Of a DNA stretch of 64,000 nucleotides, positions 53,169 to 64,000 are shown piece after piece. The notes under the pieces are model-generated. The model saw nothing but the letters and a program-made list of their open reading frames with translations, was not told where the DNA came from and searched no databases. Origin of the DNA: Escherichia phage vB_EcoS_ESCO30. The first letter of the stretch is position 1; each line of letters starts with the position of its first letter. The stretch lies in sequence record NC_106513.1, one strand, 5' to 3'. The position numbers and the translations under genes were made by a program.

Positions 53169-53177
53169 CCAGATTTT

Positions 53178-53252: not shown

Positions 53253-53275
53253 CCAACTTAATTAGGGGATTACAA

Positions 53276-53464
53276 GTGGAATTATACATAGTTTATGTTG
53301 TGTTCATTCAAGATAGAGAATACCCTGATGAATATAAAAAAGGATATAGATTAGCCAGAGCTACCTCTGAAGCCCAAGCTATGGATAAAGTGGCAGATTA
53401 TATGATTACGGTAGAAAACGTACACTATATCGACTACCTTGAAGCCTCAAAAGTAATTGACTAG
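53276..53464 (+). CDS. hypothetical small protein (GTG start, uncertain)
   Basis: Portion of the 53129-53464 ORF not overlapping tRNAs; AGGGG SD 7 nt upstream of GTG. Confidence 0.25.
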   Translation: MELYIVYVVFIQDREYPDEYKKGYRLARATSEAQAMDKVADYMITVENVHYIDYLEASKVID

Positions 53465-53473
53465 GGAGACTAT

Positions 53474-53659
53474 ATGTCTAAGTTTCAAGAACTCAAGCAA
53501 GAGCTAGAAGAATGTGCCTGCCCTGAATGTCTGGGGATTGGAGAAAGTTCTGATGCAGAAGCAGGAGATACTTTTTGCAATATCTGGGTTTGCCCAAATT
53601 GCAATGGTACAGGTATTAATCCTAACTGTGGTATTTCTCTAGATATTGAAAGAGGATAA
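53474..53659 (+). CDS. hypothetical Cys-rich zinc-ribbon-like small protein
   Basis: 61 aa; CACPEC...CPNCNGTG cysteine pairs. Confidence 0.4.
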   Translation: MSKFQELKQELEECACPECLGIGESSDAEAGDTFCNIWVCPNCNGTGINPNCGISLDIERG

Positions 53660-53761
53660 TACCTGTGAAACTAAAAGATTATTATATTGGTTGGTTTGTG
53701 GGACTAGTAGTAGGATTTTCACTAGGCTATAATATGTATCAACTAATAAACTGATTACACG

Positions 53762-53835
53762 GGGGGTGTAATCGAATTGGCATAGGTACTGGACTTAAAA
53801 TTCAGGTTTTGTGGGTTCGAATCCCACCACCCCTA
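53762..53835 (+). tRNA. tRNA with TAA anticodon (Leu-type anticodon, short variable loop)
   Basis: Acceptor GGGGGTG/CACCCCT; loop CTTAAAA; T-arm GTGGG-TTCGAAT-CCCAC; encoded CCA. Confidence 0.45.
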
Positions 53836-54013
53836 CCAAATTAAGGAAATAAGATGTATAGACATCCACCTCCGCCAACACGTCGTTCTAGGGAAGTCAT
53901 CCTTATGGAATTGACTAAAAACTTCAAGGCAACTCTTGAAGATAGAGATCTAGGCACGGATGAAGATATTGATTTTATTTGTAGACTATTAAAGATGAAA
54001 CTGGAGAAACAAC

Positions 54014-54220
54014 ATGGCTAATCCTGAAATTACCGCACAACGTTTCATGCTTAAAGGCATGATTGCTGAGGCAGGTATAACTCAAGAGGTTGCAGATTTT
54101 CATAAGCAATTTCTTGACATTATAACTCTAGCTAAAGAGACTGGAGAAAAAGAACATGGAGCGGCAATTATGGCTATATCTCTTATTAGTCTAGACTTGG
54201 CTGAAGAATCTGGAGTTTAG
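54014..54220 (+). CDS. hypothetical protein
   Basis: 68 aa ORF. Confidence 0.4.
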   Translation: MANPEITAQRFMLKGMIAEAGITQEVADFHKQFLDIITLAKETGEKEHGAAIMAISLISLDLAEESGV

Positions 54221-54250
54221 CTCCTCCAAACAGAATTTTTAAAAATGTAC

Positions 54251-54280
54251 TTGCCTTTTGCTTTAAATTTCTGATATAAT
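54251..54280 (+). promoter_or_regulatory. sigma70-like early promoter
   Basis: TTGCCT-18-TATAAT plus conserved leader. Confidence 0.45.
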
Positions 54281-54310
54281 AGTTATATAAATTGATGAAG
54301 GAGTTAACGA

Positions 54311-54586
54311 ATGCAAAATCGTGTTATAGCAGCTGGTATTGAAAGTGCAATCTGTAAATCCTGGGAAGGCTGGGAAGGTGAGATTGAATGGCTTTATTTC
54401 TATGATGTAGAACTTCTGCCGGAAGTTAAAGCTAAATGTGTTAAAGCTGGCATGGCTCCGGATGCAAAAGCTGATATTGATATTTCAATGTCTGAACTTA
54501 AAGGTCGTGTAGTTACCGTTAGTAATGAGGGGGAAGAAGTTTTCGAACTTCCATTCTCCTTAACTGTCACTCCTAAGTTCGACTAA
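54311..54586 (+). CDS. hypothetical protein
   Basis: 91 aa ORF with GGAG SD. Confidence 0.45.
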   Translation: MQNRVIAAGIESAICKSWEGWEGEIEWLYFYDVELLPEVKAKCVKAGMAPDAKADIDISMSELKGRVVTVSNEGEEVFELPFSLTVTPKFD

Positions 54587-54622
54587 CTAATACAGCACTG
54601 AGCAAGTTCTTTAAAATTTGAC

Positions 54623-54651
54623 TTGCTCAGTGCCTTAAAACTTGGTATAAT
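54623..54651 (+). promoter_or_regulatory. sigma70-like promoter inside terminator-like hairpin
   Basis: TTGCTC-17-TATAAT; -35 lies within GCACTGAGCAAG...CTTGCTCAGTGC inverted repeat. Confidence 0.45.
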
Positions 54652-54716
54652 AGTTATCTAATTTGGAAACATATTTAAAAGTGTTTAAATTAGAATTTTT
54701 GAATACTTCTAAATAT

Positions 54717-54801
54717 GGGCGTTTATTCCGTAAGTGGTAGCGGAGGGGATTGTAAATCCCTGGTCATTGCGACTCGAGTGGTTCGACTCCATTAACGCCC
54801 A
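54717..54801 (+). tRNA. tRNA-Tyr (anticodon GTA), type II
   Basis: Acceptor GGGCGTT/AACGCCC; loop TTGTAAA; long variable arm; T-arm AGTGG-TTCGACT-CCATT; encoded CCA. Confidence 0.6.
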
Positions 54802-54821
54802 CCAAATTAAAGGTAAAGGAT

Positions 54822-55313
54822 ATGTATATTGATCGGATAATTCAAGAAGCTGCAAATAGAGGTATTATACAGTTGGGTTCACCAGCTGATATAAATAAAG
54901 ATCTAATATTAGAAAGCCTCACATTTGGTACAGCTAACTTTGGTCGCGATAGTAATCGTCGATATAGCTTGAAGTTATCTGCACTATCTTTTATCAAGTA
55001 TAACAAAAGTATTGGAGAAAAATCCAGCTGTGGTTTTATTTACGCAATAACTAACCCAGCTTGGGATAACTATGTAAAAATTGGTATGTCTTCTGATCCT
55101 AAAACAAGATTAAGAAATTACCAAACCTATTCTCCTTTACGTGATTATAAGTTAATACATTGGTCATTTTGGTTTAATGCTAGAGAAGCGGAGAAAATGC
55201 TTCATAATAGCTTTCCTGAACGGCTTAATGAATGGGTAGTGTTAGACAGAGGTGTAGACGAAATACTTTCCGAGTTTAACAATTTATCCAATAAGCAATT
55301 TAAGTCCTGTTAG
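54822..55313 (+). CDS. T5orf172/GIY-YIG-related domain protein
   Basis: GFIYAITNPAWDNYVKIGMSSDPKTRLRNYQT motif block. Confidence 0.55.
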   Translation: MYIDRIIQEAANRGIIQLGSPADINKDLILESLTFGTANFGRDSNRRYSLKLSALSFIKYNKSIGEKSSCGFIYAITNPAWDNYVKIGMSSDPKTRLRNYQTYSPLRDYKLIHWSFWFNAREAEKMLHNSFPERLNEWVVLDRGVDEILSEFNNLSNKQFKSC

Positions 55314-55377
55314 ACAAACTGGTAAAGTCACTACCCTTTCAAGGTAGGATTTGCGGGTTCGATCCCCGCACAGGACG
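55304..55377 (+). tRNA. tRNA-Glu (anticodon TTC)
   Basis: Acceptor GTCCTGT/ACAGGAC; loop CTTTCAA; T-arm GCGGG-TTCGATC-CCCGC; 5' end overlaps stop codon of upstream CDS. Confidence 0.6.
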
Positions 55378-55386
55378 CCAATTTCT

Positions 55387-55462
55387 GCATTCCTAGAGTG
55401 TTACTGGACAGCATGTCGGTCTCCAAAACCGTACGGTCTAGGTTCGAGTCCTAGTAGGTTTG
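55387..55462 (+). tRNA. tRNA-like gene, possible Trp (CCA anticodon), acceptor stem unresolved
   Basis: T-arm CTAGG-TTCGAGT-CCTAG and CGGT-CTCCAAA-ACCG anticodon hairpin; acceptor pairing not found by eye. Confidence 0.3.
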
Positions 55463-55471
55463 CCAAAATTT

Positions 55472-55543
55472 GCACCTTTAGCTGAGATGGATTAGCGCTT
55501 GCCTGAAGAGCTTGAGAGGTTCGTTCGATTCGAACAGGGTGCA
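55472..55543 (+). tRNA. tRNA (possibly Phe, GAA), anticodon stem imperfect
   Basis: Acceptor GCACCTT/AGGGTGC; D-arm and T-arm GTTCG-TTCGATT-CGAAC fold; loop CTGAAGA with two stem mismatches. Confidence 0.4.
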
Positions 55544-55557
55544 CCAATTTGAAGGAG

Positions 55558-55836
55558 ATGCTGATGCATCCTGAAAACTTCTTTATTTACTGCGCGGATA
55601 AGTCGCTGAAACGTAGAATTAATAAAGTCTATCATTATCGTGCTAGTCAACAGCCTTATGTATATGCTTTTGACGGTGATCACATCCCACTAGAACAATT
55701 ATCTTGTGATTACATGATATTGAAGAACTTTGACGAGACGAAGATCTCAAGCGTTCATAATCGACAGAATCCTTTAACGTGGAAATATAAGAGGAAAAAG
55801 AAAGGCATCAAATTCTTAAAAAATGTAGTTGCTTAG
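55558..55836 (+). CDS. hypothetical protein
   Basis: ORF beginning after tRNA; GGAG SD upstream. Confidence 0.4.
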   Translation: MLMHPENFFIYCADKSLKRRINKVYHYRASQQPYVYAFDGDHIPLEQLSCDYMILKNFDETKISSVHNRQNPLTWKYKRKKKGIKFLKNVVA

Positions 55837-55857
55837 TTTCCAAAAGTTCTGTATAAT
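55829..55857 (+). promoter_or_regulatory. sigma70-like early promoter
   Basis: TTGCTT-17-TATAAT; overlaps 3' end of upstream ORF. Confidence 0.5.
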
Positions 55858-55886
55858 AATTACATAAATTGAACTGGAGAAGCGAC

Positions 55887-56111
55887 ATGACAGAACAAGA
55901 ATTGAATGAACGTAAGTTGGTAATGCTTCGCTTACTAAATATTTTCTCTGGTATGGATGGTGGAATTGACTTTGTTCATCTACGTTCTTTCGTAGAAGAA
56001 GCCGAGGGCGAATCTATCACTAAAATCCTTAAACACATGGGATTACTTTTAGACGCTGCTAATGTGGCTACTGAATATAAACTAGAAGATCTACCAGAGC
56101 GTGTTAAATGA
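55887..56111 (+). CDS. hypothetical protein
   Basis: Start at MTEQEL after GGAGAAG SD. Confidence 0.45.
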   Translation: MTEQELNERKLVMLRLLNIFSGMDGGIDFVHLRSFVEEAEGESITKILKHMGLLLDAANVATEYKLEDLPERVK

Positions 56112-56299
56112 AACGATTAGTTAGATTTAAGTGTTGTGGTTCCGAGCACATTTTCACACATCTTCGTGAATTTAAAATGTGCGATTGTGGTAAATCAGGC
56201 TATGACTCAGGAGATGGGTTCTACACCCGTACTCTAGGGAACTTCAATGATCTAGAATTTGAAGATCTCGAAAAACAAGATAAATCGACCGTTGGCTGA
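56108..56299 (+). CDS. hypothetical Cys-containing small protein
   Basis: 63 aa; CCGSEH...CDCG motif; translationally coupled. Confidence 0.4.
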   Translation: MKRLVRFKCCGSEHIFTHLREFKMCDCGKSGYDSGDGFYTRTLGNFNDLEFEDLEKQDKSTVG

Positions 56300-56358
56300 A
56301 TGGCTTAGGCGAAGGATTGCAAATCCTTTTTATGTGAGTTCAAATCTCATGCGGTCGT
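56286..56358 (+). tRNA. tRNA-Cys (anticodon GCA)
   Basis: Acceptor CGACCGT/GCGGTCG; loop TTGCAAA in AAGGA/TCCTT stem; T-arm GTGAG-TTCAAAT-CTCAT; overlaps 3' end of upstream CDS. Confidence 0.6.
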
Positions 56359-56513
56359 CCAATTTGCTGAAAGAATTGTTAAATCAATTCAGGCACGCGT
56401 AGGAACACTGTCTCCGTAATTGAAAGATGAGGCACGGTTTGGAGAGGTATGCCGCTACACGCTACGGTGCTAACTCCGTCTAGGTGAAAATCCTAGTCAG
56501 CAATATAAATTTA

Positions 56514-56593
56514 GGGTCGTTAGCCAAGCGGTTTGGCGGTGGACTGTTAATCCATGTCGAAAGACAACGTAGGTTCGAATCCTACACGGCCCG
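56514..56593 (+). tRNA. tRNA with GTT (Asn) anticodon and extended variable arm
   Basis: Acceptor GGGTCGT/ACGGCCC; D-stem GCCA/TGGC; loop CTGTTAA; 13-nt variable hairpin GTCGAAAGAC; T-arm GTAGG-TTCGAAT-CCTAC. Confidence 0.5.
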
Positions 56594-56698
56594 CCAAATT
56601 CTGTGTAGAGTTAAGTAAACCGGTAGCCAACCAGCTATCATTGCTGACATCGAATTCAGCCACAGATACCATTTTCATTAATAATTGAGGAAACAAGC

Positions 56699-56884
56699 AT
56701 GTCCAAGAATGTAATTGCACAGCTAGAAGTTCATCGTGATAGCACTATCAACAATATTGAAGTTGAGAAGAAATACATCGAAGAACTTAAACATGATATA
56801 CTAGTAAGTCTCAATCGTCTTAATGTACGAAAAGAGTTTCTTAAAGAACTTAATGCAGCTATTGAAAAACTCAAAGCTGAGTAA
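56699..56884 (+). CDS. hypothetical coiled-coil small protein
   Basis: 61 aa ORF with GAGGAAA SD. Confidence 0.4.
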   Translation: MSKNVIAQLEVHRDSTINNIEVEKKYIEELKHDILVSLNRLNVRKEFLKELNAAIEKLKAE

Positions 56885-56893
56885 ATAAATTAT

Positions 56894-56967
56894 GCGACCG
56901 GGGCTGGCTTGGTAATGGTACTCCCCTGTCACGGGAGGGAATGTGGGTTCAAATCCCATCGGTCGCG
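56894..56967 (+). tRNA. tRNA-Asp (anticodon GTC)
   Basis: Perfect acceptor GCGACCG/CGGTCGC; CTCCC-CTGTCAC-GGGAG anticodon arm; T-arm GTGGG-TTCAAAT-CCCAT; encoded CCA. Confidence 0.65.
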
Positions 56968-56995
56968 CCAAATTAATTTAGTATGAGAATATACT

Positions 56996-57343
56996 ATGCG
57001 TAATGCCAAAGAAGAGTTGTTACTTGCCTTAAAAAATACTAATTCTGAAGTTAAGTGTATTAAAATAGAATTCGGGTATTATGGGGATAAAAAAGTTTGG
57101 GTATTACCTTTAGGTTATACAGAAGAAGACATTGAGGATTTTCTTAATAACCTAGACTTTGAATATGATTCTGGATATGGTGGACAATTACTTTATGGTA
57201 ATGTATGGTTTGCCGACGGAACTTGGCTAGAACGTGGGGAATATGACGGTGCTGAGTGGTGGGAATACAAGGCCACCCCGGCAATCCCAGAGGAATGCCG
57301 AACAATTAATGGTGAAGTAGACAATACTTTACGGTTAAACTAA
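56996..57343 (+). CDS. hypothetical protein
   Basis: 115 aa ORF. Confidence 0.45.
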   Translation: MRNAKEELLLALKNTNSEVKCIKIEFGYYGDKKVWVLPLGYTEEDIEDFLNNLDFEYDSGYGGQLLYGNVWFADGTWLERGEYDGAEWWEYKATPAIPEECRTINGEVDNTLRLN

Positions 57344-57351
57344 TAAAATTT

Positions 57352-57424
57352 CAGTGCGTAGCGCAGTTGGTAGCGTGGGATCCTTGGATGATTCGGGTCG
57401 CAGGTTCGAGTCCTGCCGCACTGA
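57352..57424 (+). tRNA. tRNA-Pro (anticodon TGG)
   Basis: Acceptor CAGTGCG/CGCACTG; GGATC-CTTGGAT-GATTC anticodon arm; T-arm GCAGG-TTCGAGT-CCTGC; encoded CCA. Confidence 0.65.
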
Positions 57425-57433
57425 CCAAACAAT

Positions 57434-57506
57434 TGCGGGTGGGAGGCATAGAGTTCTTCTTAGTCTCATAAGCTAAGTAAGTCCAGGGCAGTACTGGAAC
57501 CCGCTA
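57434..57506 (+). tRNA. tRNA-like gene with CAT anticodon and non-canonical T-loop
   Basis: 6-bp acceptor pairing; loop CTCATAA; T-arm TCCAG-GGCAGTA-CTGGA lacks TTCRA consensus. Confidence 0.35.
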
Positions 57507-57527
57507 CCAATTTCAAGAAAAACGCAG

Positions 57528-57556
57528 TTGCTTAATGCTTAATTTCTTGTTATAAT
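57528..57556 (+). promoter_or_regulatory. sigma70-like promoter driving an untranslated leader into tRNA genes
   Basis: TTGCTT-17-TATAAT; followed by GATGAGGAGAAATCCTCATC hairpin, no ORF before tRNA-Ala. Confidence 0.5.
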
Positions 57557-57794
57557 ATTTATATAAATTGATGAGGAGAAATCCTCATCATAGTTCACTA
57601 AGGTATTAGCTCGACCTAGGACTGGCTGCCAAAAAGCACGATCCCTACTATTTGGGAGAAGTTCTAGATTAGTCCACTAGATTCAGCGGCAACTGAATAG
57701 TGTATTGGGTTTGCGAGATGACGCAGTTCCTTCCGCTCGAAGCGAAGGTGCTGTAGTTACGCCGAGCTAATAGCCTTAGTAAACTAAAGAATTT

Positions 57795-57866
57795 GGGCGA
57801 ATAGTGTCAGCGGGAGCACACCAGACTTGCAATCTGGTAGGGAGGGTTCGAGTCCCTCTTTGTCCA
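57795..57866 (+). tRNA. tRNA-Ala (anticodon TGC)
   Basis: Acceptor GGGCGAA/TTTGTCC (G-U pairs); D-stem GTGT/GCAC; CCAGA-CTTGCAA-TCTGG; T-arm GAGGG-TTCGAGT-CCCTC; encoded CCA. Confidence 0.65.
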
Positions 57867-57874
57867 CCAAATTC

Positions 57875-57956
57875 GGGGCTATGCTGGAACTGGTAGACAA
57901 TACGGCCTTAGATTCCGTAGCTTAAATGCGTGGGAGTTCGAGTCTCCCTAGCCCCA
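57875..57956 (+). tRNA. tRNA-Leu (anticodon TAG), type II
   Basis: Perfect acceptor GGGGCTA/TAGCCCC; loop CTTAGAT; long variable region; T-arm GGGAG-TTCGAGT-CTCCC; encoded CCA. Confidence 0.5.
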
Positions 57957-57976
57957 CCAACTCATAGGATTTATGT

Positions 57977-58561
57977 ATGCAGTTTGTACCAGTAAAAGAT
58001 GCACCAGGGTATTTAGTAAATGAGGCGGGGGATGTGTTCTCTACATTTACTAATAAAGTTTTATCAAGATATATAGTTGATGGATACCCTGCTGTAAAAT
58101 TACAGATAAATGGTAAACAAACCTCTGTACTTATACACCGAATTATTTCTCATGTATTTGGGGACTTATATAATCTATTTGACCCTGAATTAGAGGTAGA
58201 TCATAAGGATAGAGATAGACTGAATCTATCTAAAGATAATCTTCAAGTCCTATCAAAAATAGAACATCAGAGGAAAACTAATAAAGATAATGGGTGGTCT
58301 GACAGTAGAGTACCTTGCCCCCTATGTGGGAGTCTAATGCTTCAGAGATCTGTAACATGTACAAATTGTAAGCCAAAACCTACAGGAAGGTTGATAAAAC
58401 CAGAATTGTCTTTAGACGACATAACTGAAAAGGTTTTATTAATGGGGTGGGTTAAGGCAGCTAAAGAGTTAGAAGTATCAGAGTCCACTTTGCGCAGGAG
58501 GTATACTAAACTAACTGGATTAAGCCCAAAAGTATTAACAGAACAACGGAAAAGCAAATAG
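57977..58561 (+). CDS. HNH homing endonuclease (NUMOD-like N-terminus + HNH)
   Basis: ...LIHRIISHVFGDL...EVDHKDRDRLNLSKDNLQVLSKIEHQRK... HNH core; embedded in tRNA cluster. Confidence 0.65.
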   Translation: MQFVPVKDAPGYLVNEAGDVFSTFTNKVLSRYIVDGYPAVKLQINGKQTSVLIHRIISHVFGDLYNLFDPELEVDHKDRDRLNLSKDNLQVLSKIEHQRKTNKDNGWSDSRVPCPLCGSLMLQRSVTCTNCKPKPTGRLIKPELSLDDITEKVLLMGWVKAAKELEVSESTLRRRYTKLTGLSPKVLTEQRKSK

Positions 58562-58638
58562 ACTGGCGACTAAACCCGATTGGAAATCGGTTGAGTAATA
58601 GCAATATTGCCTTATGGGTTCAACTCCCATCTTTTCCG
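58548..58638 (+). tRNA. tRNA-Ser (anticodon GGA), type II
   Basis: Perfect acceptor GGAAAAG/CTTTTCC; ACCGA-TTGGAAA-TCGGT anticodon arm; long variable arm; T-arm ATGGG-TTCAACT-CCCAT; overlaps 3' end of HNH CDS. Confidence 0.5.
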
Positions 58639-58648
58639 CCAAACAAAT

Positions 58649-58735
58649 GGAAGATAGGACGTAGTGGTACGTAACTGGTCTTGAAAACCAGCCCGCTGTA
58701 GTGATACGGTGATGGTTCGACTCCATTATCTTCTG
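58649..58735 (+). tRNA. tRNA-Ser (anticodon TGA), type II
   Basis: Acceptor GGAAGAT/ATCTTCT; perfect CTGGT-CTTGAAA-ACCAG anticodon arm; long variable arm; T-arm GATGG-TTCGACT-CCATT; encoded CCA. Confidence 0.6.
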
Positions 58736-58754
58736 CCAACTTATAGGGTAATAT

Positions 58755-58937
58755 ATGTCTTTAACGAAAACTGTGAAGGTTACACTAACTGATGGCACAG
58801 AGTTTAGTGCACAAATAACCTTACTAGAAGACGGTTATTGGGAAGTATATCTTCCACACGTTAATTCTACTGGTAGAGGATGGACTCAACAACAGGCTAT
58901 TGTTGATGCTTTAAATGAGGCTTCCGCTGGTTTATAA
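58755..58937 (+). CDS. hypothetical protein
   Basis: 60 aa ORF. Confidence 0.4.
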   Translation: MSLTKTVKVTLTDGTEFSAQITLLEDGYWEVYLPHVNSTGRGWTQQQAIVDALNEASAGL

Positions 58938-59304
58938 AAATTCTTGGAATATGCCGGAATTGGTAGACGGGACTGCCCAATAGGTTTACTAGGAACATCC
59001 ACTCCTAGAAATATACCTTAAAAGCGGTTGAGTTAAATGGTCTAACTCATGAAGGTTCAAGTCCTTCTGCTTCTTGATACATCTATGGCTCAAAGTGTAA
59101 CGGTGCTATTTGATGCTCTTGGAAAGACTTTCCCGACAGGCGTTCGGGGGTAAGCTTCTGAGGCTAGAATAGAAGAGTTTCTGAGAGCCGCCACAATTGA
59201 AAATTCGTACTCGTCTTGAGCTGCGTGCAATAGGAGATAACTTGATTAGTATTCTAGAACATGCTAATTGAGGATGGTTTCGCTAACCCTGCGAGTTTTC
59301 AATT

Positions 59305-59378
59305 GTGGCTATATCATAATTGGTTAATGATCCTGATTGTGAATCAGGCCTATGTGGATTCGAATTCCACTAGCCACC
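59305..59378 (+). tRNA. tRNA-His (anticodon GTG)
   Basis: Perfect acceptor GTGGCTA/TAGCCAC; CCTGA-TTGTGAA-TCAGG anticodon arm; T-arm GTGGA-TTCGAAT-TCCAC; encoded CCA. Confidence 0.65.
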
Positions 59379-59406
59379 CCAAATTAACTTAAATAGGAAA
59401 TAAAAT

Positions 59407-59604
59407 ATGGCTGATTTCTGCAAACAATGCTCCATTGATATGTGGGGCAGAGATACTGGTGATCTTTCTGGTTTGATTACAGAAGCCGAAGTCAAAGAAG
59501 GTTATGGTGCAGTTGTGATTTGCGAAGGATGCGGAGTTATTCGAGTAGATCATGAAGGCAAACGTTTAGAAGAACCGGAAAATTTAGGAGAAACAAATGA
59601 GTAA
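59407..59604 (+). CDS. hypothetical Cys-containing small protein
   Basis: 65 aa; CKQCS...CEGCG cysteine pairs. Confidence 0.4.
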   Translation: MADFCKQCSIDMWGRDTGDLSGLITEAEVKEGYGAVVICEGCGVIRVDHEGKRLEEPENLGETNE

Positions 59605-59833
59605 TGCTTTAATTAGTGAAATTATGTTAACACGTCTTGCAGAACTGCAAACTCTTCGAGATGAATCTCAGAATAACTTAGCCTATCATAAACAGATGGT
59701 AGATACTCTTACTACTCGTATTGAAACTTACGAGCGTGATATTGCAGCATTACAAGCTCTTTTCTCTGTATCAGCACCAGATACATTAGAACAGCCTGCC
59801 GTATCTCAGCCGGTAGAAACAGCATCTAGTTAA
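59597..59833 (+). CDS. hypothetical protein
   Basis: 78 aa ORF overlapping previous by 8 nt. Confidence 0.4.
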   Translation: MSNALISEIMLTRLAELQTLRDESQNNLAYHKQMVDTLTTRIETYERDIAALQALFSVSAPDTLEQPAVSQPVETASS

Positions 59834-59842
59834 TAGCATTCT

Positions 59843-59915
59843 TGGAGTGTAGATCAATTGGCAGATCGTCGGCCTCTGACTCCGAAGGTTCCTGGTTCGA
59901 TCCCAGGCACTCCAG
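59843..59915 (+). tRNA. tRNA-Gln (anticodon CTG)
   Basis: Perfect acceptor TGGAGTG/CACTCCA; loop CTCTGAC; T-arm CCTGG-TTCGATC-CCAGG; encoded CCA. Confidence 0.5.
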
Positions 59916-59924
59916 CCAAACAAT

Positions 59925-59997
59925 TGGAGAGTAGTGTAACGGTTAGCACAACGGCCTTTGACTCCGTTAATGGTAGGTTCGATTCCTCCTTCTCCAG
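59925..59997 (+). tRNA. tRNA-Gln (anticodon TTG)
   Basis: Acceptor TGGAGAG/TTCTCCA; D-stem GTGT/GCAC; loop CTTTGAC; T-loop TTCGATT; encoded CCA. Confidence 0.5.
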
Positions 59998-60008
59998 CCA
60001 AACAATAA

Positions 60009-60081
60009 GCGGTTAAGCACACGGGTTGTGTCGCAGGCCTTCCAAGCCTCGCTGAGTAGGGTTCGATTCCCTCTAGCCGCT
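60009..60081 (+). tRNA. tRNA-Gly (anticodon TCC)
   Basis: Acceptor GCGGTTA/TAGCCGC; AGGC-CTTCCAA-GCCT anticodon hairpin; T-loop TTCGATT; encoded CCA. Confidence 0.5.
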
Positions 60082-60100
60082 CCAACTTTAAGGAAACGTT

Positions 60101-60322
60101 ATGCACGTTTTTGAGTTTCGTAATAAAAGTACCAATAAACGAGTTATTGTTATTGGGGAAACATATCGAGCATATGAACAAACTGACGGCTCTGTTATCT
60201 TGAATGATGAGAAAGGGGGTTTTAGCTTTTATCCAGAAGAAACGTATGAGGGGTTTCGTACTAAGTTTCTTTTACCAGACTGGCTAGCAGTAGCCGAGCA
60301 ACGAGAATCCGAAGATGGCTGA
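60101..60322 (+). CDS. hypothetical protein
   Basis: 73 aa ORF. Confidence 0.4.
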   Translation: MHVFEFRNKSTNKRVIVIGETYRAYEQTDGSVILNDEKGGFSFYPEETYEGFRTKFLLPDWLAVAEQRESEDG

Positions 60323-60479
60323 TAACCTAAAATTAAGAGTTGACAAACAAAAGAAATACGTTGAGGTTGAATTAGGCGAAGAACGCTTAAAGCTAACTTT
60401 CGAGTTTCTTCAGCAGTTGGCTATGACAGTTATGACTGATAAGTCTCCTGTTATTGAAAAAGAAATCCCGTTGAAATAA
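60315..60479 (+). CDS. hypothetical small protein
   Basis: 54-aa ORF overlapping previous stop (ATGGCTGA), coiled-coil-like. Confidence 0.3.
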   Translation: MADNLKLRVDKQKKYVEVELGEERLKLTFEFLQQLAMTVMTDKSPVIEKEIPLK

Positions 60480-60489
60480 CGGGATTATC

Positions 60490-60561
60490 GCTCCTAAAGC
60501 ATTGCTGGCGATGCAGCTGCCTTGTAAGCATCTGAACCGGGTTCGATTCCTGGTGGGAGCA
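60490..60561 (+). tRNA. tRNA-Thr (anticodon TGT)
   Basis: Acceptor GCTCCTA/TGGGAGC; D-arm GCAT...ATGC; loop CTTGTAA; T-arm CCGGG-TTCGATT-CCTGG; encoded CCA. Confidence 0.55.
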
Positions 60562-60579
60562 CCAAATTTAAAAATTCAT

Positions 60580-60608
60580 TTGCCTTCTCTCTTATTTCTT
60601 GTTATAAT
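60580..60608 (+). promoter_or_regulatory. sigma70-like early promoter
   Basis: TTGCCT-17-TATAAT plus conserved leader. Confidence 0.5.
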
Positions 60609-60638
60609 ATTTATATAAGTTAATGAGAGGGAAACCAA

Positions 60639-60932
60639 ATGAAACGTTATCTTTCTGTTGTGTTCCAAACTGGTGGTCAACGCTATACCTATGAATTTCC
60701 TAGCTCTTGGAAGATCAAAGAAGGTGATCAAGTAGTAGTGTTAACACCGCGTGAGGGTTTCAAGGTAGTAACGGTTAAGCAAGTATTTCCAAAAGAGCAT
60801 GAACCAGCTAAAGGCATTCGCTATAAGATGATTCATGGTGTAGTTCGTCAAGTACCACGAGTGGAGGTCGAAATCAAAGTAGATAAAGATGGTAAACTTA
60901 AATATACCTCTTGCTTAGACGAGTTGCTATAA
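60639..60932 (+). CDS. hypothetical protein
   Basis: 97 aa ORF with GAGAGGG SD. Confidence 0.45.
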   Translation: MKRYLSVVFQTGGQRYTYEFPSSWKIKEGDQVVVLTPREGFKVVTVKQVFPKEHEPAKGIRYKMIHGVVRQVPRVEVEIKVDKDGKLKYTSCLDELL

Positions 60933-61138
60933 TGAGGATTACTTTTACAGAAAAGATCATGAGTAATGGTGTTATGATCATTACCGCATGGGATGGCAAT
61001 CAGTGGTGTAGTGTTTCAGGTATTAAGCCTGAAAAACAAACACTAGAAAATATCTCAAAGATTAAGCGAAGAATGGCAGAACGTGCACGACTTCCAGGTG
61101 CACCTAGAAATGGCAAACGTTCTGCTGTAAAATGTTAA
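60932..61138 (+). CDS. hypothetical protein
   Basis: Start at MRITFTEK overlapping previous stop (TAATG). Confidence 0.4.
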   Translation: MRITFTEKIMSNGVMIITAWDGNQWCSVSGIKPEKQTLENISKIKRRMAERARLPGAPRNGKRSAVKC

Positions 61139-61139
61139 T

Positions 61140-61213
61140 GCTTCGGTAGCTTAGCGATCTAAAGCACTCGGCTGATAACCGAGAGATCGGGGGTTTAAAT
61201 CCCTCCCGGAGTA
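61140..61213 (+). tRNA. tRNA-Ile (anticodon GAT)
   Basis: Acceptor GCTTCGG/CCGGAGT; D-stem GCTT/AAGC; perfect CTCGG-CTGATAA-CCGAG; unusual T-loop TTTAAAT; encoded CCA. Confidence 0.55.
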
Positions 61214-61312
61214 CCAAATTTAGGAATTAAGACTATGCGTCCAGGAAAGTTTAAAAAAGCTAATTGGACTAAAGAGTATAAAGAATACTTACTTAGCCTA
61301 ATAAAACATAAT

Positions 61313-61385
61313 AGTTAGTTGGCAGAGTGGTTATGCACCTCCTTCATACGGAGCGACTACAGTGGTTCAAATCCACTACTAACTA
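61313..61385 (+). tRNA. tRNA with CAT anticodon (Met or Ile-lysidine)
   Basis: Perfect acceptor AGTTAGT/ACTAACT; loop TTCATAC; T-arm AGTGG-TTCAAAT-CCACT; no encoded CCA. Confidence 0.5.
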
Positions 61386-61425
61386 TCATTAAAAGAGCTA
61401 GAGATAGCTAACTTTAGGAGCAGCT

Positions 61426-61620
61426 ATGTTAACAATTAAAATAATGTCAGCCAAGAATGGGGAACAGATTCATACAGGCAAAAGTGTAAGCTTTAATCCT
61501 AGAAATAAAAGATTGGCTATAGTTGGAGTAGACCAAGCCATCTTTTTAAAAGAAGATGAAGTAGCATATGTCATGAACCAAACTGGTAAGACAGTTTCCG
61601 TATACTATGGAAAAGTATAA
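61426..61620 (+). CDS. hypothetical protein
   Basis: 64 aa ORF with AGGAG SD. Confidence 0.45.
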   Translation: MLTIKIMSAKNGEQIHTGKSVSFNPRNKRLAIVGVDQAIFLKEDEVAYVMNQTGKTVSVYYGKV

Positions 61621-61662
61621 AGAATAAATAGCTGAGCCAAATTCTAACATCGGGGAGATCTA

Positions 61663-62031
61663 ATGAAAGCATATCAAAATCTTAAATCTGGCGTAATTAA
61701 CCTTGTTCATGAAAATCAGATTATTCAGCTATACTCCGACAATGGTGAACTTAAACAGAAAGTTCTAGTTGAAGATCTAGAAGGTATCACACCACAATTC
61801 GATCCAGAAGCCTTCCGTGAAGTCAAAGTGGAAGTCGCCCCTCAAATCGAAGGTGGTCAGCACCTAAATGTCAATGTATTAAGCCGTGATCAGCTTTTGG
61901 ATGCACAGAAACATCCTGAAAAATACCCTCAATTAACTATCCGTGTTTCAGGGTACGCTGTACGTTTTAATGCACTGACTCGTGAACAGCAGAACGACGT
62001 TATTAGTCGTACATTTACTCAGGCGATGTAA
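61663..62031 (+). CDS. grcA: autonomous glycyl radical cofactor (GrcA/YfiD-like)
   Basis: 122 aa; C-terminal ...[56 protein letters not shown] closely matches E. coli YfiD glycyl-radical region. Confidence 0.75.
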
Positions 62032-62112
62032 TGGGGTTTGGATACGATTTCTCCGAACTACGTGAGGTAGTCGAGCAAATTCCATTTATCTCCCAAGTTT
62101 TAGGAGAAATGT

Positions 62113-62418
62113 GTGGATCGAGCATTAAGACGCCATCATCGGCAACGTGTGAAGAACAACCGCAAGAAGTATTGGACAGTCTTCCCACATGAAGAAAGCC
62201 CTAAGCGGTTAGGTATTATCACTACTACTCCTTGCATTTGTTCTTGTTGGATGTGTGGGAACCCTCGCAAATACTATAAAAATAGTAAAGCAGGTATGAA
62301 AACCTCGGAGATCAGGAAAATGGAAGCGATGATTGCGGACATCACCTATACTGGTGGTATTTCAAATGATGAATTTGATGGCTTCGTAGCGTTCGAAGAT
62401 GAACGTCCCGATCTGTAA
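62113..62418 (+). CDS. hypothetical Cys-containing protein (GTG start)
   Basis: 101 aa; CICSCWMCG motif; TAGGAGA SD 5 nt upstream. Confidence 0.4.
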   Translation: MDRALRRHHRQRVKNNRKKYWTVFPHEESPKRLGIITTTPCICSCWMCGNPRKYYKNSKAGMKTSEIRKMEAMIADITYTGGISNDEFDGFVAFEDERPDL

Positions 62419-62427
62419 TTAATAACA

Positions 62428-62466
62428 AACCCCAGCTATTGAATAAGTAGTCTGGGGTTTTTCTGT
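62428..62466 (+). terminator. rho-independent terminator
   Basis: CCCCAG-loop-CTGGGG hairpin followed by TTTTTCTGT. Confidence 0.65.
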
Positions 62467-62539
62467 ATACAGGAAAATAGTTTATGTATAATAAAATTCA
62501 TCCACATTAGGTTAATTTAAAAGACTTAATGGAGGTAAT

Positions 62540-62887
62540 ATGAGCCGTACTTATCGTAGACAATCTGGTGATCAGTGGTGGAAGTCTAAAGAACAATTCT
62601 CTCAAGAATATTCTTTCCTTAAAGAAAATGGCTACTGGATTCGTGTTATTTATGCTAAATCCTGGGATGATGTAGAACAGGAAATGAAGGAAGCAACCAT
62701 TCGTAATGAGAAAAAGGATGGTTATAACTGGAATTCTATTAGTAAGAATGTTAAGTGGCATTCTAATAAAATGGTTCGTCAAGGGAATCGTCAAGAACTC
62801 CACCGCGTGATGAAAGATCCAGAAAATGATGATTATAATCGCGATCATGACATGCGTAAGCGTGGGTTATGGTGGCGCTATGACTAA
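62540..62887 (+). CDS. hypothetical protein
   Basis: 115 aa ORF with GGAGG SD. Confidence 0.45.
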   Translation: MSRTYRRQSGDQWWKSKEQFSQEYSFLKENGYWIRVIYAKSWDDVEQEMKEATIRNEKKDGYNWNSISKNVKWHSNKMVRQGNRQELHRVMKDPENDDYNRDHDMRKRGLWWRYD

Positions 62888-62904
62888 ATTCTGAAATAAT
62901 TCAT

Positions 62905-62933
62905 TTGCTAAACCTCTCTTTTCTTGCTATAAT
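62905..62933 (+). promoter_or_regulatory. sigma70-like early promoter
   Basis: TTGCTA-17-TATAAT plus conserved leader. Confidence 0.5.
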
Positions 62934-62963
62934 ATGTTTATAAATTGATGAGAGAGGTTTGAA

Positions 62964-63245
62964 ATGAAAACTCGTCTAGACTGTGCTGTTCATGTTCTTG
63001 AACATGATGTTGCGGGAACCTGTATGTCTTACCACGAAGCAGGTCGTTTAATTAAAGAACGTGTGGCAGATGTGTGCGGATTGAAGATTACTGCTGAGGA
63101 AGCTGATGATCTTTTAGGTCAAGCACTGGAGAAAACCGAAATGTTTCTCTGCGATTCTTGTTCTTGGTGGTGTGAAGCTCACGAACGTTCTTTCAACGAT
63201 TATGATGTATGTCGTGATTGTAGTGGGGAGGATGAAGATGAATAA
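62964..63245 (+). CDS. hypothetical Cys-rich protein with acidic C-terminus
   Basis: 93 aa; CDSCSWWCEAHE...CRDCSGEDEDE. Confidence 0.45.
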   Translation: MKTRLDCAVHVLEHDVAGTCMSYHEAGRLIKERVADVCGLKITAEEADDLLGQALEKTEMFLCDSCSWWCEAHERSFNDYDVCRDCSGEDEDE

Positions 63246-63537
63246 GTTTATTATTGCACTGATGATCTCCGCAGTTAGTTTCGGTTCTCTGGCGTCTACC
63301 AAAGTTTCTATGAAAAATGGTAATGTTAAAGTCCAACAGAACGGCATTATTACAGAGTATGGTAAAGTTCGTGATGTTAAGGAACGTAATGGTAAAGTAG
63401 AAATATATACTAATAAAAACTTCTCTACTCCGGCTGTTACTGTTAGCAAACGTGGTGAGATAACTACTCAACGTACTAATAGCTCTAGTTCTTTTACTTG
63501 TCGTTATGATTGCGACTTCGAAGGTGAAGATGAATAA
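63232..63537 (+). CDS. hypothetical secreted protein (signal peptide)
   Basis: Start MKMNKFIIALMISAVSFGSLAS; overlaps previous ORF; ends CRYDCDFEGEDE. Confidence 0.45.
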   Translation: MKMNKFIIALMISAVSFGSLASTKVSMKNGNVKVQQNGIITEYGKVRDVKERNGKVEIYTNKNFSTPAVTVSKRGEITTQRTNSSSSFTCRYDCDFEGEDE

Positions 63538-63925
63538 TTTAGATCCTAGAATTAAATTTGCAATTACAGAAATCCAAGATCAAATTGATGAGGACTTCAC
63601 TGTTTGGTCAAGGTCCGGTAATGGGGAATACTGCCAGCTTTATAGCATGAAAATGGGCATTTCAATCGAGCTTAACATTAACTCTGAAGGTAGAGTAGAA
63701 GCCCAACCACTATTCAGTGTTCCAGGCTTCTCTGGATTTGTTGCAGGTATGAAATTGTGTCTACCAAATAACCATCTTCATCGAGTTATTTGTCAGCTAG
63801 AGACTATTAAACATTTCTTGCCAGAAGGTAACATTAATGACTACTACCATGAAGTTGTAGCAGCTCATATGATGAAAGAACGCAAACGTCGGAGAGAAGA
63901 ACGTGAAAAAGCTAAACATCAATAG
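63530..63925 (+). CDS. hypothetical protein
   Basis: Start MNNLDPRIKF overlapping previous stop (ATGAATAA). Confidence 0.45.
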   Translation: MNNLDPRIKFAITEIQDQIDEDFTVWSRSGNGEYCQLYSMKMGISIELNINSEGRVEAQPLFSVPGFSGFVAGMKLCLPNNHLHRVICQLETIKHFLPEGNINDYYHEVVAAHMMKERKRRREEREKAKHQ

Positions 63926-64000
63926 CACAGTGCAGATTCCAGCAACTAAGGACATCTTAACATTCCTGCGTAGTGAGAATACACAATTTTGGCATGACTA

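What the first reader, a model, noticed from the sequence alone, without database searches (positions are those of the whole stretch)
58938..59304. Unresolved tRNA-like region with Leu-type D-arm, orphan T-arm and a 14-bp inverted repeat reaching into tRNA-His
The region contains a canonical Leu-type D-arm sequence (GCCGGAATTGGTAGACGGG, 58953-58972) and a perfect T-arm (GAAGG-TTCAAGT-CCTTC, 59051-59067), but no acceptor pairing at tRNA spacing. It also contains GCCACAATTGAAAA (about 59193-59206), whose exact reverse complement TTTTCAATTGTGGC runs into the 5' acceptor strand of tRNA-His. Possibilities include an intron-containing or permuted tRNA, a processing signal, or degenerate tRNA remnants.
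Basis: seen in the sequence. Interest (0 to 1): 0.45.

Follow-up and report, generated by a model that had tools for sequence, protein, structure and literature searches.

The report
Known phage T5 stable RNA genes
The "unresolved" stretch holds three small stable RNA genes already annotated in phage T5 (a tRNA-shaped RNA1, then RNAI and RNAIII), and the inverted repeat is a conserved RNA helix that most likely serves as a cutting site between RNAI and tRNA-His; what these RNAs do is still unknown.

Summary
The window is a T5-like phage (Tequintavirus). Region 58938-59304 matches, base for base, three misc_RNA genes annotated in RefSeq T5 (NC_005859):
- RNA1, "tRNA-like stable RNA with unknown functions", window 58943-59086.
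- RNAI, 59087-59193.
- RNAIII, 59198-59303.

**Observation.** It is real. The claim of "no acceptor pairing" is wrong in general. A 7-position acceptor helix exists and covaries in relatives. In this window alone it carries one G.U pair and one A x C mismatch.

**RNA1.** It has a type II (Leu-like) tRNA body. A 40-nt covarying hairpin replaces the anticodon loop, position 1:72 is U.U, and no CCA is encoded. In 28 distinct sequences, 94.8% of cells are paired and 13 of 37 pairs change on both sides.

**Inverted repeat.** It is a ~20-bp RNA helix that starts at the NCCA end of RNAI and ends inside tRNA-His. It keeps pairing across 11 sequence versions (12 of 19 pairs change on both sides, with strand-specific G.U pairs), while its apical insert is hypervariable. 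The annotated RNAIII ends leave a 2-nt 3' overhang, which is the RNase III signature.

**Verdict.** Already known and ordinary in kind. Function is unknown and the RNAs are absent from Rfam.

The parts
58943..59086 (+). RNA1 gene: tRNA-like stable RNA, 144 nt, with ends taken from the T5 annotation
   Evidence: It aligns end to end with misc_RNA rna1 of AY692264 and NC_005859, described there as 'tRNA-like stable RNA with unknown functions'. The covariance model built on 28 homologues scores it 159.7 bits.
58945..58951 (+). RNA1 acceptor helix, 5' strand (TGGAATA). It pairs with 59068-59074.
   Evidence: A3 columns 6-12 pair with 130-136. Four of the 7 pairs change on both sides across relatives, and U1.U72 is conserved. 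In this window the pairs are G.U at 3:70 and A x C at 5:68. OSYSP has TATTCCT and T5 has TGTTCCT, both fully complementary.
58954..58970 (+). RNA1 D arm (CCG-GAATTGGTAGA-CGG), Leu type with a 3-bp stem
   Evidence: It is invariant or nearly so in 28 sequences. It aligns with the phage's own tRNA-Leu(TAG) D arm.
58972..59028 (+). RNA1 expanded 'anticodon' arm. Basal stem 58972-76 / 59024-28, middle stem 58982-85 / 59015-18, apical stem 58989-94 / 59003-08, and an 8-nt loop ACATCCAC at 58995-59002.
   Evidence: All three stems show changes on both sides (3, 2 and 3 pairs respectively). The loop is identical in every relative retrieved by similarity except RefSeq T5, which has ACATCCGC.
59029..59049 (+). 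RNA1 long variable arm (TGAGTTA-AATGGTC-TAACTCA): 7-bp stem with a 7-nt loop
   Evidence: 99% of cells are paired. Pair 95:107 occurs as A-U, U-A and C-G, and the loop is invariant.
59051..59067 (+). RNA1 T arm (GAAGG-TTCAAGT-CCTTC)
   Evidence: 100% of cells are paired, and the loop has the tRNA-type TTCRA sequence.
59068..59074 (+). RNA1 acceptor helix, 3' strand (TGCTTCT). It is followed by TTGATA rather than CCA.
   Evidence: The window-specific substitutions cluster at 59069-59084, and the best database identity over RNA1 is 97.5%.
59087..59193 (+). RNAI gene: 107-nt stable RNA with a 5-bp closing helix GGCTC/GAGCC followed by G-CCA
   Evidence: It aligns end to end with misc_RNA rnaI of T5. 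The closing helix and central hairpin covary (CCCGA/TCGGG versus CCTGG/CCAGG; GGCTC/GAGCC versus GGCCC/GGGCC). The helix-N-CCA register is kept in Pectobacterium and Klebsiella phages.
59190..59209 (+). 5' arm of the long-range processing helix. It starts at the discriminator and CCA of RNAI.
59198..59303 (+). RNAIII: 106-nt stable RNA, the apical part of the hairpin closed by the inverted repeat
   Evidence: It aligns end to end with misc_RNA rnaIII of T5. The 5' end 59198 pairs with 59301, so the 3' end at 59303 is a 2-nt overhang. The content of this insert differs completely among relatives, from 14 to 123 nt in at least 9 versions.
59290..59309 (+). 3' arm of the processing helix. Its last 5 nt are positions 1-5 of tRNA-His.
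   Evidence: The helix is 20 bp with two U.G pairs. In alignment A6, 98.1% of cells are paired and 12 of 19 pairs change on both sides.
59304..59381 (+). tRNA-His(GTG). T5 records annotate it as 78 nt including U at position -1; ARAGORN gives 59305-59381.

Best explanation
The interval is a segment of the phage T5-type tRNA operon. It encodes three small stable RNAs, already catalogued for T5 as RNA1, RNAI and RNAIII, immediately upstream of tRNA-His.

**RNA1.** It is a derivative of a type II (leucine-like) tRNA.
- It keeps the acceptor helix, D arm, long variable arm, T arm and the tertiary-core nucleotides.
- Its anticodon loop is replaced by a 40-nt two-stem extension capped by a nearly invariant 8-nt loop.
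- Position 1:72 is U.U, position 73 is U, and no CCA is encoded.
- It therefore has the shape of a tRNA but cannot decode, and is unlikely to be charged.

**RNAI.** It is a 107-nt hairpin-type RNA with a tRNA-like end (5-bp helix, one nucleotide, then CCA).

**The inverted repeat.** It is an RNA helix of about 20 bp formed in the primary transcript. It pairs the trailer of RNAI, starting at its discriminator and CCA, with the leader plus the first five nucleotides of tRNA-His.

Inferred mechanism:
1. Host RNase III cuts this helix with a 2-bp stagger.
2. The cut releases the apical part as RNAIII.
3. It leaves a 4-nt trailer on RNAI, which exonucleases trim back to CCA.
4. It frees the 5' acceptor strand of tRNA-His so that the tRNA can fold.
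5. RNase P cutting at the 5' end of RNAI defines the 3' end of RNA1.

**Shown versus inferred.**
- Shown: identity with the T5 genes, the secondary structures, and their conservation.
- Inferred: the enzymes involved.
- Unknown: the biological roles. My best guess for RNA1 is a tRNA-shaped mimic that occupies a host factor recognising the tRNA body.
For: **Identity with T5 genes**
- The interval is 99% identical to T5-like phages.
- It aligns end to end with the misc_RNA features rna1, rnaI and rnaIII of AY692264 and NC_005859.

**RNA1 structure**
- In 28 distinct sequences, 94.8% of cells are paired against 39-51% when partners are slid.
- 13 of 37 pairs change on both sides, and 0 of 500 shuffles reach the observed values.
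- RNAalifold independently recovers the same arms, and ARAGORN -i draws the same cloverleaf.
- Besides RNA1 itself, the RNA1 covariance model scores tRNA-Leu(TAG) best, at 38 bits.

**The helix**
- It is 17-21 bp in nearly all versions.
- 98.1% of cells are paired and 12 of 19 pairs change on both sides.
- G.U and U.G pairs occur that would be A-C mismatches on the other strand.
- It is kept in Sugarlandvirus, where both the tRNA-His 5' end and the helix sequence differ.
- The folding z-score is -4.4.

**RNase III reading**
- Pairing obeys i+j = 118499, so RNAIII (59198-59303) has exactly a 2-nt 3' overhang.
- A 4-nt gap separates RNAI and RNAIII in the annotation.
- A second T5 stable RNA, RNA2H (window 57604-57775), has the same geometry: its 5' U pairs with G184 and its 3' end lies 2 nt further.
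- A role for RNase III in phage T4 tRNA synthesis is on record (McClain 1979, cited in PMC4810235).
Against: - The RNA ends come from database annotation. I could not read the primary papers, so I cannot confirm that the ends were mapped experimentally.
- No RNA-seq or RNase III mutant data were available.
- One relative (L022) has only a 14-bp helix with a 14-nt loop, which is short for RNase III.
- In Sugarlandvirus the helix reaches only to nucleotide 2 of tRNA-His. The cut position relative to the tRNA cannot therefore be the same everywhere.
- The internal fold of RNAI is ambiguous. Two different consensus folds were obtained, and its folding energy is not unusual (z from -1.3 to +0.3).
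- Nothing here tests any function for RNA1. In this window its acceptor helix is weakened.
Confidence: 0.8

Rival explanations
1. RNA1 is a genuine intron-containing tRNA-Leu(UAA) gene. A 40-nt intron is removed from the anticodon loop and the product is charged and used in translation.
For: GenBank record JLBYU40 annotates the homologue as tRNA-Leu(taa), 134 nt. In the T5 lineage the 3' side of the loop reads CTTAAAA, a good Leu(UAA) loop.
Against: - In other lineages the same program infers Phe(aaa) or Val(aac), with the intron at positions 35-39. No consistent anticodon exists.
- The 'intron' carries covarying stems and the most conserved loop of the molecule.
- The insertion point (32/33) is not the canonical 37/38.
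- The insert has no group I intron features and there is no Rfam hit. From general knowledge, bacteria lack the splicing endonuclease for short tRNA introns.
- No CCA is encoded, position 73 is U, and position 1:72 is U.U.
- T5 RefSeq lists the 144-nt unspliced molecule as a stable RNA.
- The phage already has a tRNA-Leu(taa) at 53762-53838.
Confidence: 0.04
2. The region is decaying tRNA pseudogene debris plus a chance palindrome, with no function.
For: Default tRNA predictors and Rfam find nothing. The acceptor helix in this window has a mismatch.
Against: The region is conserved in about 500 Demerecviridae genomes down to 72-74% identity, with compensatory changes in every helix. T5 records list stable RNAs here.
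Confidence: 0.02
3. The interval encodes small proteins, as several genome records annotate 'hypothetical protein' here, and the conservation is protein-level.
For: ORFs exist at 59049-59153 (34 aa) and 59197-59271 (24 aa). GreteKellenberger and SuperGirl annotate CDSs across RNAI and RNAIII.
Against: A 7-nt indel separates the T5-type and Epseptimavirus-type RNAI, while nucleotide similarity resumes after it. The reading frame is therefore not kept. The window ORF starting at the ATG of 59085 stops after 22 codons. No Shine-Dalgarno sequence precedes it. Substitutions are compensatory in helices.
Confidence: 0.03
4. The inverted-repeat helix is real, but its role is not RNase III cleavage. 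It could delay tRNA-His folding, guide RNase P or RNase E, protect RNAIII as a stable hairpin RNA with its own function, or act at the DNA level.
For: The helix sequesters positions 1-5 of tRNA-His. The L022 version is short, at 14 bp. The cut register relative to tRNA-His differs in Sugarlandvirus. I have no enzymatic data.
Against: - The helix length is held near 20 bp while the insert changes completely.
- The annotated ends give a 2-nt 3' overhang here and at RNA2H.
- G.U pairs rule out a DNA cruciform or a function on the other strand.
- No T-run follows the helix, so it is not a terminator.
- The RNAIII sequence is not conserved between genera, so a conserved RNAIII function is unlikely.
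Confidence: 0.15

Closest known systems
Phage T5 stable RNAs RNA1, RNAI and RNAIII (misc_RNA rna1, rnaI, rnaIII in NC_005859 and AY692264; Ksenzenko et al. 1982, Biochim Biophys Acta 697:235, cited in PMC8084836)
   Same: They occupy the same genomic position between tRNA-Ser(UGA) plus a small ORF and tRNA-His. The sequence is nearly identical, and the lengths (144, 107 and 106 nt) map end to end onto the window.
   Different: This window's RNA1 has a 3' acceptor strand of the AKFV33 type (TGCTTCT) opposite a T5-type 5' strand, giving one G.U pair and one A x C mismatch. No database record is more than 97.5% identical over RNA1.
Phage T4 species 1 and species 2 RNAs (rnaC, rnaD)
   Same: They are two small stable RNAs of unknown function, co-transcribed with the phage tRNA cluster. 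rnaC also has a T arm (CCGGG-TTCGAAT-CCCGG), a long arm before it, a long hairpin in place of the anticodon arm, and a closing helix with tandem U.U. rnaD ends in CCA, like RNAI.
   Different: No detectable sequence or profile similarity: the RNA1 covariance model does not hit rnaC. rnaC lacks a recognisable Leu-type D arm. The gene order is reversed. This is analogy, not shown homology.
Type II tRNA-Leu (the phage's own tRNA-Leu(TAG) at 57875-57959)
   Same: Colinear cloverleaf with a near-identical D arm (TATGC[C/T]GGAA[T/C]TGGTAGAC), a long variable arm and a T loop TTCRAGT.
   Different: There is no 7-nt anticodon loop (40 extra nt), position 1:72 is U.U, position 73 is U rather than A73, no CCA is encoded, and the closing helix continues beyond position 1:72.
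RNase III processing helices that bracket stable RNAs (rRNA operon stems; phage T7 early and T4 tRNA precursor sites)
   Same: A long-range helix of ~20 bp is formed by sequences flanking an RNA that is excised, and the products carry 2-nt 3' overhangs.
   Different: Here the helix is built from the CCA end of one stable RNA and the first nucleotides of a tRNA. Cleavage has not been demonstrated for this site, as far as I could find.
T5 RNA2 and RNA3 (other 'tRNA-like stable RNAs' in NC_005859)
   Same: RNA2 also has an 8-bp acceptor helix, a D arm, a T arm and an expanded anticodon arm. T5 therefore carries a small class of anticodon-less tRNA look-alikes.
   Different: Different sequence. 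RNA2 is absent from this window at the corresponding place.

Membership tests
T5 RNA1 / RNAI / RNAIII stable RNA genes | Sequence homology and synteny with the annotated T5 features | tested here: met
   The three T5 features align end to end with window 58943-59086, 59087-59193 and 59198-59303, and the flanking genes are the same.
T5 RNA1 / RNAI / RNAIII stable RNA genes | Accumulation as discrete stable RNAs in infected cells | not testable with these tools
   This rests only on the wording of the database annotation ('stable RNA'). The primary papers were not readable here.
Canonical tRNA (Rfam RF00005 / ARAGORN default) | Detected by standard predictors | tested here: not met
   There is no ARAGORN or Rfam hit at 58938-59304 in the window. 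ARAGORN also finds nothing at the homologous place in T5 or 8 relatives.
Canonical tRNA (Rfam RF00005 / ARAGORN default) | Acceptor helix, D arm, T arm and tertiary-core nucleotides at tRNA spacing | tested here: met
   Cloverleaf arms show covariation and the ARAGORN -i drawing agrees. U8, A14, G18G19, A21 and T54-T55-C56 can be read in the sequence.
Canonical tRNA (Rfam RF00005 / ARAGORN default) | 7-nt anticodon loop with U33 and a consistent anticodon | tested here: not met
   A 47-nt segment lies between the stem strands. The inferred anticodon is taa, aaa or aac depending on lineage.
Canonical tRNA (Rfam RF00005 / ARAGORN default) | Single-stranded N73-CCA 3' end (encoded or added) | tested here: not met
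   The 3' strand is followed by TTGATA, which pairs further with the 5' flank (pairs 3:139 and 4:138). The annotated RNA1 runs on for 12 more nt, to 59086. Post-transcriptional addition cannot be tested here.
Intron-containing tRNA (group I or short endonuclease-type intron) | Recognisable intron class at a conserved position, with exon anticodon loop conserved | tested here: not met
   There is no Rfam intron hit, the insert is only 40 nt, and the insertion position and anticodon are inconsistent between lineages.
Permuted or split tRNA | 3' half encoded upstream of the 5' half, or halves at separate loci | tested here: not met
   All arms are colinear within 58945-59074.
RNase III substrate | About two turns of double-stranded RNA | tested here: met
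   The helix is 20 bp in the window and 17-21 bp in 10 of 13 versions listed. It covaries.
RNase III substrate | Products with 2-nt 3' overhangs | tested here: inconclusive
   The annotated RNAIII ends fit exactly (59198 pairs with 59301; the 3' end is 59303), and so do those of RNA2H. However, the ends are taken from annotation, not from data I could inspect.
RNase III substrate | Cleavage dependent on the enzyme | not testable with these tools
   This needs an rnc mutant host or an in-vitro cleavage assay.
T4 rnaC / rnaD family | Detectable homology | tested here: not met
   Model R1 gives no hit on T4 rnaC or rnaD. Neither they nor the T5 RNAs are in Rfam.

The most novel reading that the evidence does not exclude
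The conserved helix may do more than separate transcripts.
- By cutting one nucleotide upstream of G1, RNase III rather than RNase P would create the extra 5' nucleotide (U-1) of the phage tRNA-His. The gene lacks the G-1 that E. coli encodes. This would give the phage tRNA the 8-nt 5' strand that histidyl-tRNA synthetase expects.
- In parallel, RNA1, together with T5 RNA2 and RNA3, would be an anticodon-less tRNA decoy that titrates a host factor recognising the Leu-type tRNA body, such as LeuRS, a modification enzyme or a tRNA-directed defence nuclease.
Probability: 0.12. Interest if true: 0.6.

Novelty: already known. Interest (0 to 1): 0.25.

Why it matters
The finding itself is explained by existing annotation of phage T5.

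Practical value:
- These three genes are missing from most of the ~500 related genome records. There they are left blank, called hypothetical proteins, or mis-called as intron-containing tRNA-Leu.
- They are absent from Rfam.
- The covariation-supported structures given here could seed Rfam families and correct those annotations.

Biological value:
- The roles of phage-encoded tRNA look-alikes (T5 RNA1/2/3, T4 RNAC/RNAD) have been open for decades.
- They have gained relevance now that phage tRNAs are known to counter tRNA-targeting defences.
- The processing-helix model gives a simple, testable link between RNase III and maturation of the phage tRNA-His.

Tried and rejected
- **Rfam at E<=1** over 48000-64000 returned only tRNAs and nothing in the interval. 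T4 rnaC and rnaD are likewise not in Rfam.
- **Group I intron or permuted tRNA:** rejected.
- **Homology of RNA1 with T4 rnaC:** the covariance model gives no hit.
- **First guess for the Sugarland RNAI homologue:** I took the sequence immediately downstream of Sugarland RNA1 as the homologue. This was wrong. The true homologue lies ~1.7 kb away, next to tRNA-His.
- **Targets complementary to the two conserved RNA1 loops in the window:** no more than chance.
- **Bacterial chromosomal homologues:** 4 chance pattern matches, none confirmed by the model.
- **Metagenome and IMG/VR scans:** they added only T5-like sequences. These loci were fetched with a pattern containing the loop motif, so they cannot be used to argue that the loop is invariant.
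- **blastn of an 'intron-less' RNA1 against E. coli genomes:** no match.
- **Promoter and terminator scan:** nothing convincing, consistent with co-transcription with the tRNAs.
- **Literature searches for T5 stable RNAs:** the held library gave only reference-list citations.
- **Internal fold of RNAI:** a rod-like and a cloverleaf-like consensus were both obtained, and I could not decide between them.

Full report
**Origin of the window**

The 681 bases around the finding are 99.1% identical to Escherichia phages OSYSP and IrisVonRoten, and 567 phage records match. All the relatives I looked up are Demerecviridae: Tequintavirus, Epseptimavirus and Sugarlandvirus. The window therefore carries the tRNA gene cluster of a T5-like phage. 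ARAGORN finds 22 tRNAs on the + strand.

**Check of the observation**

- The D-arm string is at 58953-58971 and the T arm at 59051-59067, as reported.
- Default ARAGORN and an Rfam scan at E<=1 find nothing between tRNA-Ser(tga) (ends 58738) and tRNA-His (starts 59305).
- The perfect 14-bp inverted repeat is at 59190-59203 / 59296-59309, 3 nt left of the coordinates given.
- The repeat finder extends it to 18 nt at 94%. With U.G pairs it is a 20-bp RNA helix.
- Only seven inverted repeats of this size class occur in the whole window.

The statement that there is no acceptor pairing is incorrect.
- TGGAATA (58945-58951) and TGCTTCT (59068-59074) lie at exact tRNA spacing.
- In this window they form U.U, G-C, G.U, A-U, A x C, U.G, A-U.
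- That weak pairing is why a reader working by eye missed it.

**What is already annotated**

RefSeq T5 (NC_005859) and the T5 st0 record (AY692264) annotate three misc_RNA genes exactly here:

| T5 feature | Annotation text | Length |
|---|---|---|
| rna1 | "RNA1, tRNA-like stable RNA with unknown functions" | 144 nt |
| rnaI | "RNAI, stable RNA with unknown functions" | 107 nt |
| rnaIII | "RNAIII, stable RNA with unknown functions" | 106 nt |

They are followed by a 78-nt tRNA-His. Aligned to the window they correspond to 58943-59086, 59087-59193 and 59198-59303, with tRNA-His starting at U59304.

Another T5 record (AY587007) and almost all relatives carry no such annotation. The stretch is left blank or called "hypothetical protein". 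One record calls RNA1 a 134-nt tRNA-Leu(taa).

The existence of work on cloned T5 stable RNA genes is confirmed by a citation: Ksenzenko et al. 1982, BBA 697:235. I could not read the paper itself.

**RNA1**

I collected homologues by similarity search and by pattern scans and aligned 28 distinct sequences.

The proposed structure is a cloverleaf with a three-helix extension in place of the anticodon loop. Its statistics:
- 94.8% of cells are paired, against 39-51% when the 3' partners are slid by 1-3 columns.
- 13 of 37 pairs change on both sides.
- No shuffle out of 500 reaches the observed values.

RNAalifold independently recovers the same arms.

*Acceptor helix.* It covaries clearly, always with U1.U72:

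| Lineage | 5' strand | 3' strand |
|---|---|---|
| T5 lineage | TGGAATA | TGTTCCT or TATTCCT |
| Most others | TGAAGTA | TGCTTCT or TACTTCT |
| Pectobacterium phage DU_PP_V | TGGAGTA | TACTCCT |

The helix continues past two U.U oppositions (pairs 3:139 and 4:138). In Sugarland it is 12 positions long.

*Other arms.*
- The D arm is Leu type. It matches the phage's own tRNA-Leu(TAG), which is the best non-self hit of the RNA1 covariance model at 38 bits.
- The basal stem of the extension changes from ACTGC/GCGGT to GCTTC/GAGGC.
- The apical stem changes among CTAGGA/TCCTAG, GGGGA/TCCCC, AGAGGA/TCCTC and GCAGA/TCTGC.
- The 8-nt loop ACATCCAC is unchanged in all similarity-retrieved relatives except RefSeq T5, which reads ACATCCGC.
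- Loci fetched by pattern required that loop motif, so they do not count as evidence for its invariance.

*Ends.* No CCA follows the 3' strand, and position 73 is U.

**Is RNA1 an intron-containing tRNA?**

With introns allowed, ARAGORN calls tRNA-Leu(taa) with a 40-nt intron at 58945-59075, in the window and in T5. On the same cloverleaf in other lineages it calls:
- Phe(aaa), with the intron at positions 35-37;
- Val(aac), with the intron at position 39.

A type II body with a Phe or Val anticodon, and an anticodon that changes with lineage while the "intron" stays conserved and structured, is the behaviour of a program fitting a model. It is not the behaviour of a spliced gene.

Together with the missing CCA, U73, U1.U72 and the annotated 144-nt stable form, this leads me to reject the intron reading. 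The CTTAAAA remnant in the T5 lineage does suggest descent from a tRNA-Leu(UAA) gene.

**RNAI**

RNAI runs from 59087 to 59193.

*Closing helix and 3' end.* A 5-bp closing helix (GGCTC/GAGCC) is followed by one nucleotide and CCA. The helix is GGGCC/GGCTC in DU_PP_V and GGCCC/GGGCC in Sugarlandvirus.

The helix-N-CCA register is constant even where the register relative to tRNA-His shifts. This argues that the CCA is a true tRNA-like 3' end.

*Central hairpin.* It covaries: CCCGA/TCGGG versus CCTGG/CCAGG versus TTGGG/CTAAG.

*Remaining fold.* It is not settled. Two different consensus folds came out, and the folding energies are unremarkable.

*Protein-coding reading.* It is unlikely. A 7-nt indel separates the two main sequence types, and the window's frame stops after 22 codons.

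**The inverted repeat**

In every lineage the 5' arm starts at the discriminator or CCA of RNAI, and the 3' arm ends within the first 2-5 nucleotides of tRNA-His.

The helix is 17-21 bp in 10 of the 13 versions found. The sequence it encloses ranges from 14 to 123 nt and is unrelated between versions.

On an alignment of 11 versions:
- 98.1% of cells pair;
- 12 of 19 pairs change on both sides, for example CAATTG/CAATTG to CAAGTG/CACTTG, CAATTA/TAATTG and AAATTT/AAATTT;
- no shuffle reaches the observed values.

Several versions contain G.U or U.G pairs. These would be A-C mismatches on the opposite strand or in DNA, so the helix acts in the + strand RNA. It is not followed by a T-run.

*Cleavage geometry.* Using the T5 annotation, the RNAIII 5' end (59198) pairs with 59301 and its 3' end is 59303. 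This is a 2-nt 3' overhang. The complementary product, RNAI plus CAAU, also has a 2-nt 3' overhang. This is the geometry left by RNase III.

A second T5 stable RNA present in the window, RNA2H (57604-57775), is likewise closed by a long helix and has a 2-nt 3' overhang. RNase III involvement in phage T4 tRNA synthesis has been reported (McClain 1979, cited).

I therefore infer that the helix is an RNase III site with four consequences:
- it separates RNAI from tRNA-His;
- it releases the variable apical part as RNAIII;
- it leaves a trailer on RNAI for exonucleolytic trimming to CCA;
- it frees the 5' acceptor strand of tRNA-His.

This step is inferred, not demonstrated.

**Modularity**

In Sugarlandvirus the RNAI-helix-tRNA-His unit is intact, whereas RNA1 lies about 1.7 kb away after other tRNAs. 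RNA1 and the RNAI/helix unit are therefore separate modules.

**Distribution**

About 500 of 50,697 phage records carry RNA1. A scan of one genome per bacterial species found no confirmed homologue.

**Peculiarity of this window**

Four of the few differences from its closest relatives cluster at 59069-59084. They convert the 3' acceptor strand to the type found in the AKFV33 lineage. No database record exceeds 97.5% identity over RNA1. This looks like a short recombination patch that weakens the helix.

**Comparison and verdict**

The feature is a member of the known T5 stable RNA genes. The nearest analogues elsewhere are T4 RNAC and RNAD. These are also encoded in the tRNA cluster, are also of unknown role, and RNAC has a similar architecture. 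No homology could be shown.

The finding is real but already known. The remaining open question is function, which these tools cannot address.

Noticed in passing
window 57604-57775: This is the homologue of T5 stable RNA RNA2H (172 nt, 'unknown functions'). It is closed by a long helix (folding z-score -5.9). Its annotated ends also give a 2-nt 3' overhang, suggesting a second RNase III-excised RNA.
   Followed up: partly
window 59304-59309; L050 2861-2864: The phage tRNA-His genes have U, not G, at position -1. Sugarlandvirus additionally has U73. T5 records annotate the tRNA as 78 nt including U-1. How this tRNA satisfies the usual G-1 requirement of HisRS is unclear.
   Followed up: partly
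window 59069-59084: A cluster of 4 substitutions relative to OSYSP and IrisVonRoten swaps the RNA1 3' acceptor strand to the AKFV33-lineage version. This creates G.U and A x C oppositions. It is probably a micro-recombination patch.
   Followed up: partly
window 53178-53252 and 60008-60081: Rfam reports tRNA-like matches here that ARAGORN did not call (40.3 bits to tRNA; 30.9 bits to the tRNA-Sec model). The second lies where T5 has tRNA-Gly.
   Followed up: no
window 56971-57351 and 57428-57603: T5 RNA2 ('tRNA-like stable RNA') and RNAIV are not present between tRNA-Asp and tRNA-Pro in this window; other sequence lies there instead. ARAGORN also finds no counterpart in the window of the T5 tRNA fMet/Lys/Val block.
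   Followed up: partly
L051 6963-7087 (T5 rna2): T5 RNA2 also folds as a tRNA look-alike: an 8-bp acceptor helix CATTCTAG/CTAGGATG, D and T arms, and an expanded anticodon arm. T5 therefore carries a small class of anticodon-less tRNA mimics, RNA1, RNA2 and RNA3.
   Followed up: partly
window 57977-58561: An HNH homing-endonuclease ORF (194 aa) overlaps the start of tRNA-Ser(gga) at 58548. It matches the T5 hegC position.
   Followed up: no
L006 and L019, between RNA1 and RNAI: Some Epseptimavirus-like phages carry an extra ~120-nt insert between RNA1 and RNAI. Its content differs between the two phages. Together with the variable RNAIII region, this shows that the junctions between stable RNA genes are insertion hot spots.
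   Followed up: no
NC_005859 (L052), RNA1 loop: RefSeq T5 reads ACATCCGC in the RNA1 apical loop, where AY587007, AY692264 and all other relatives read ACATCCAC. This is either a strain difference or a sequencing error.
   Followed up: no
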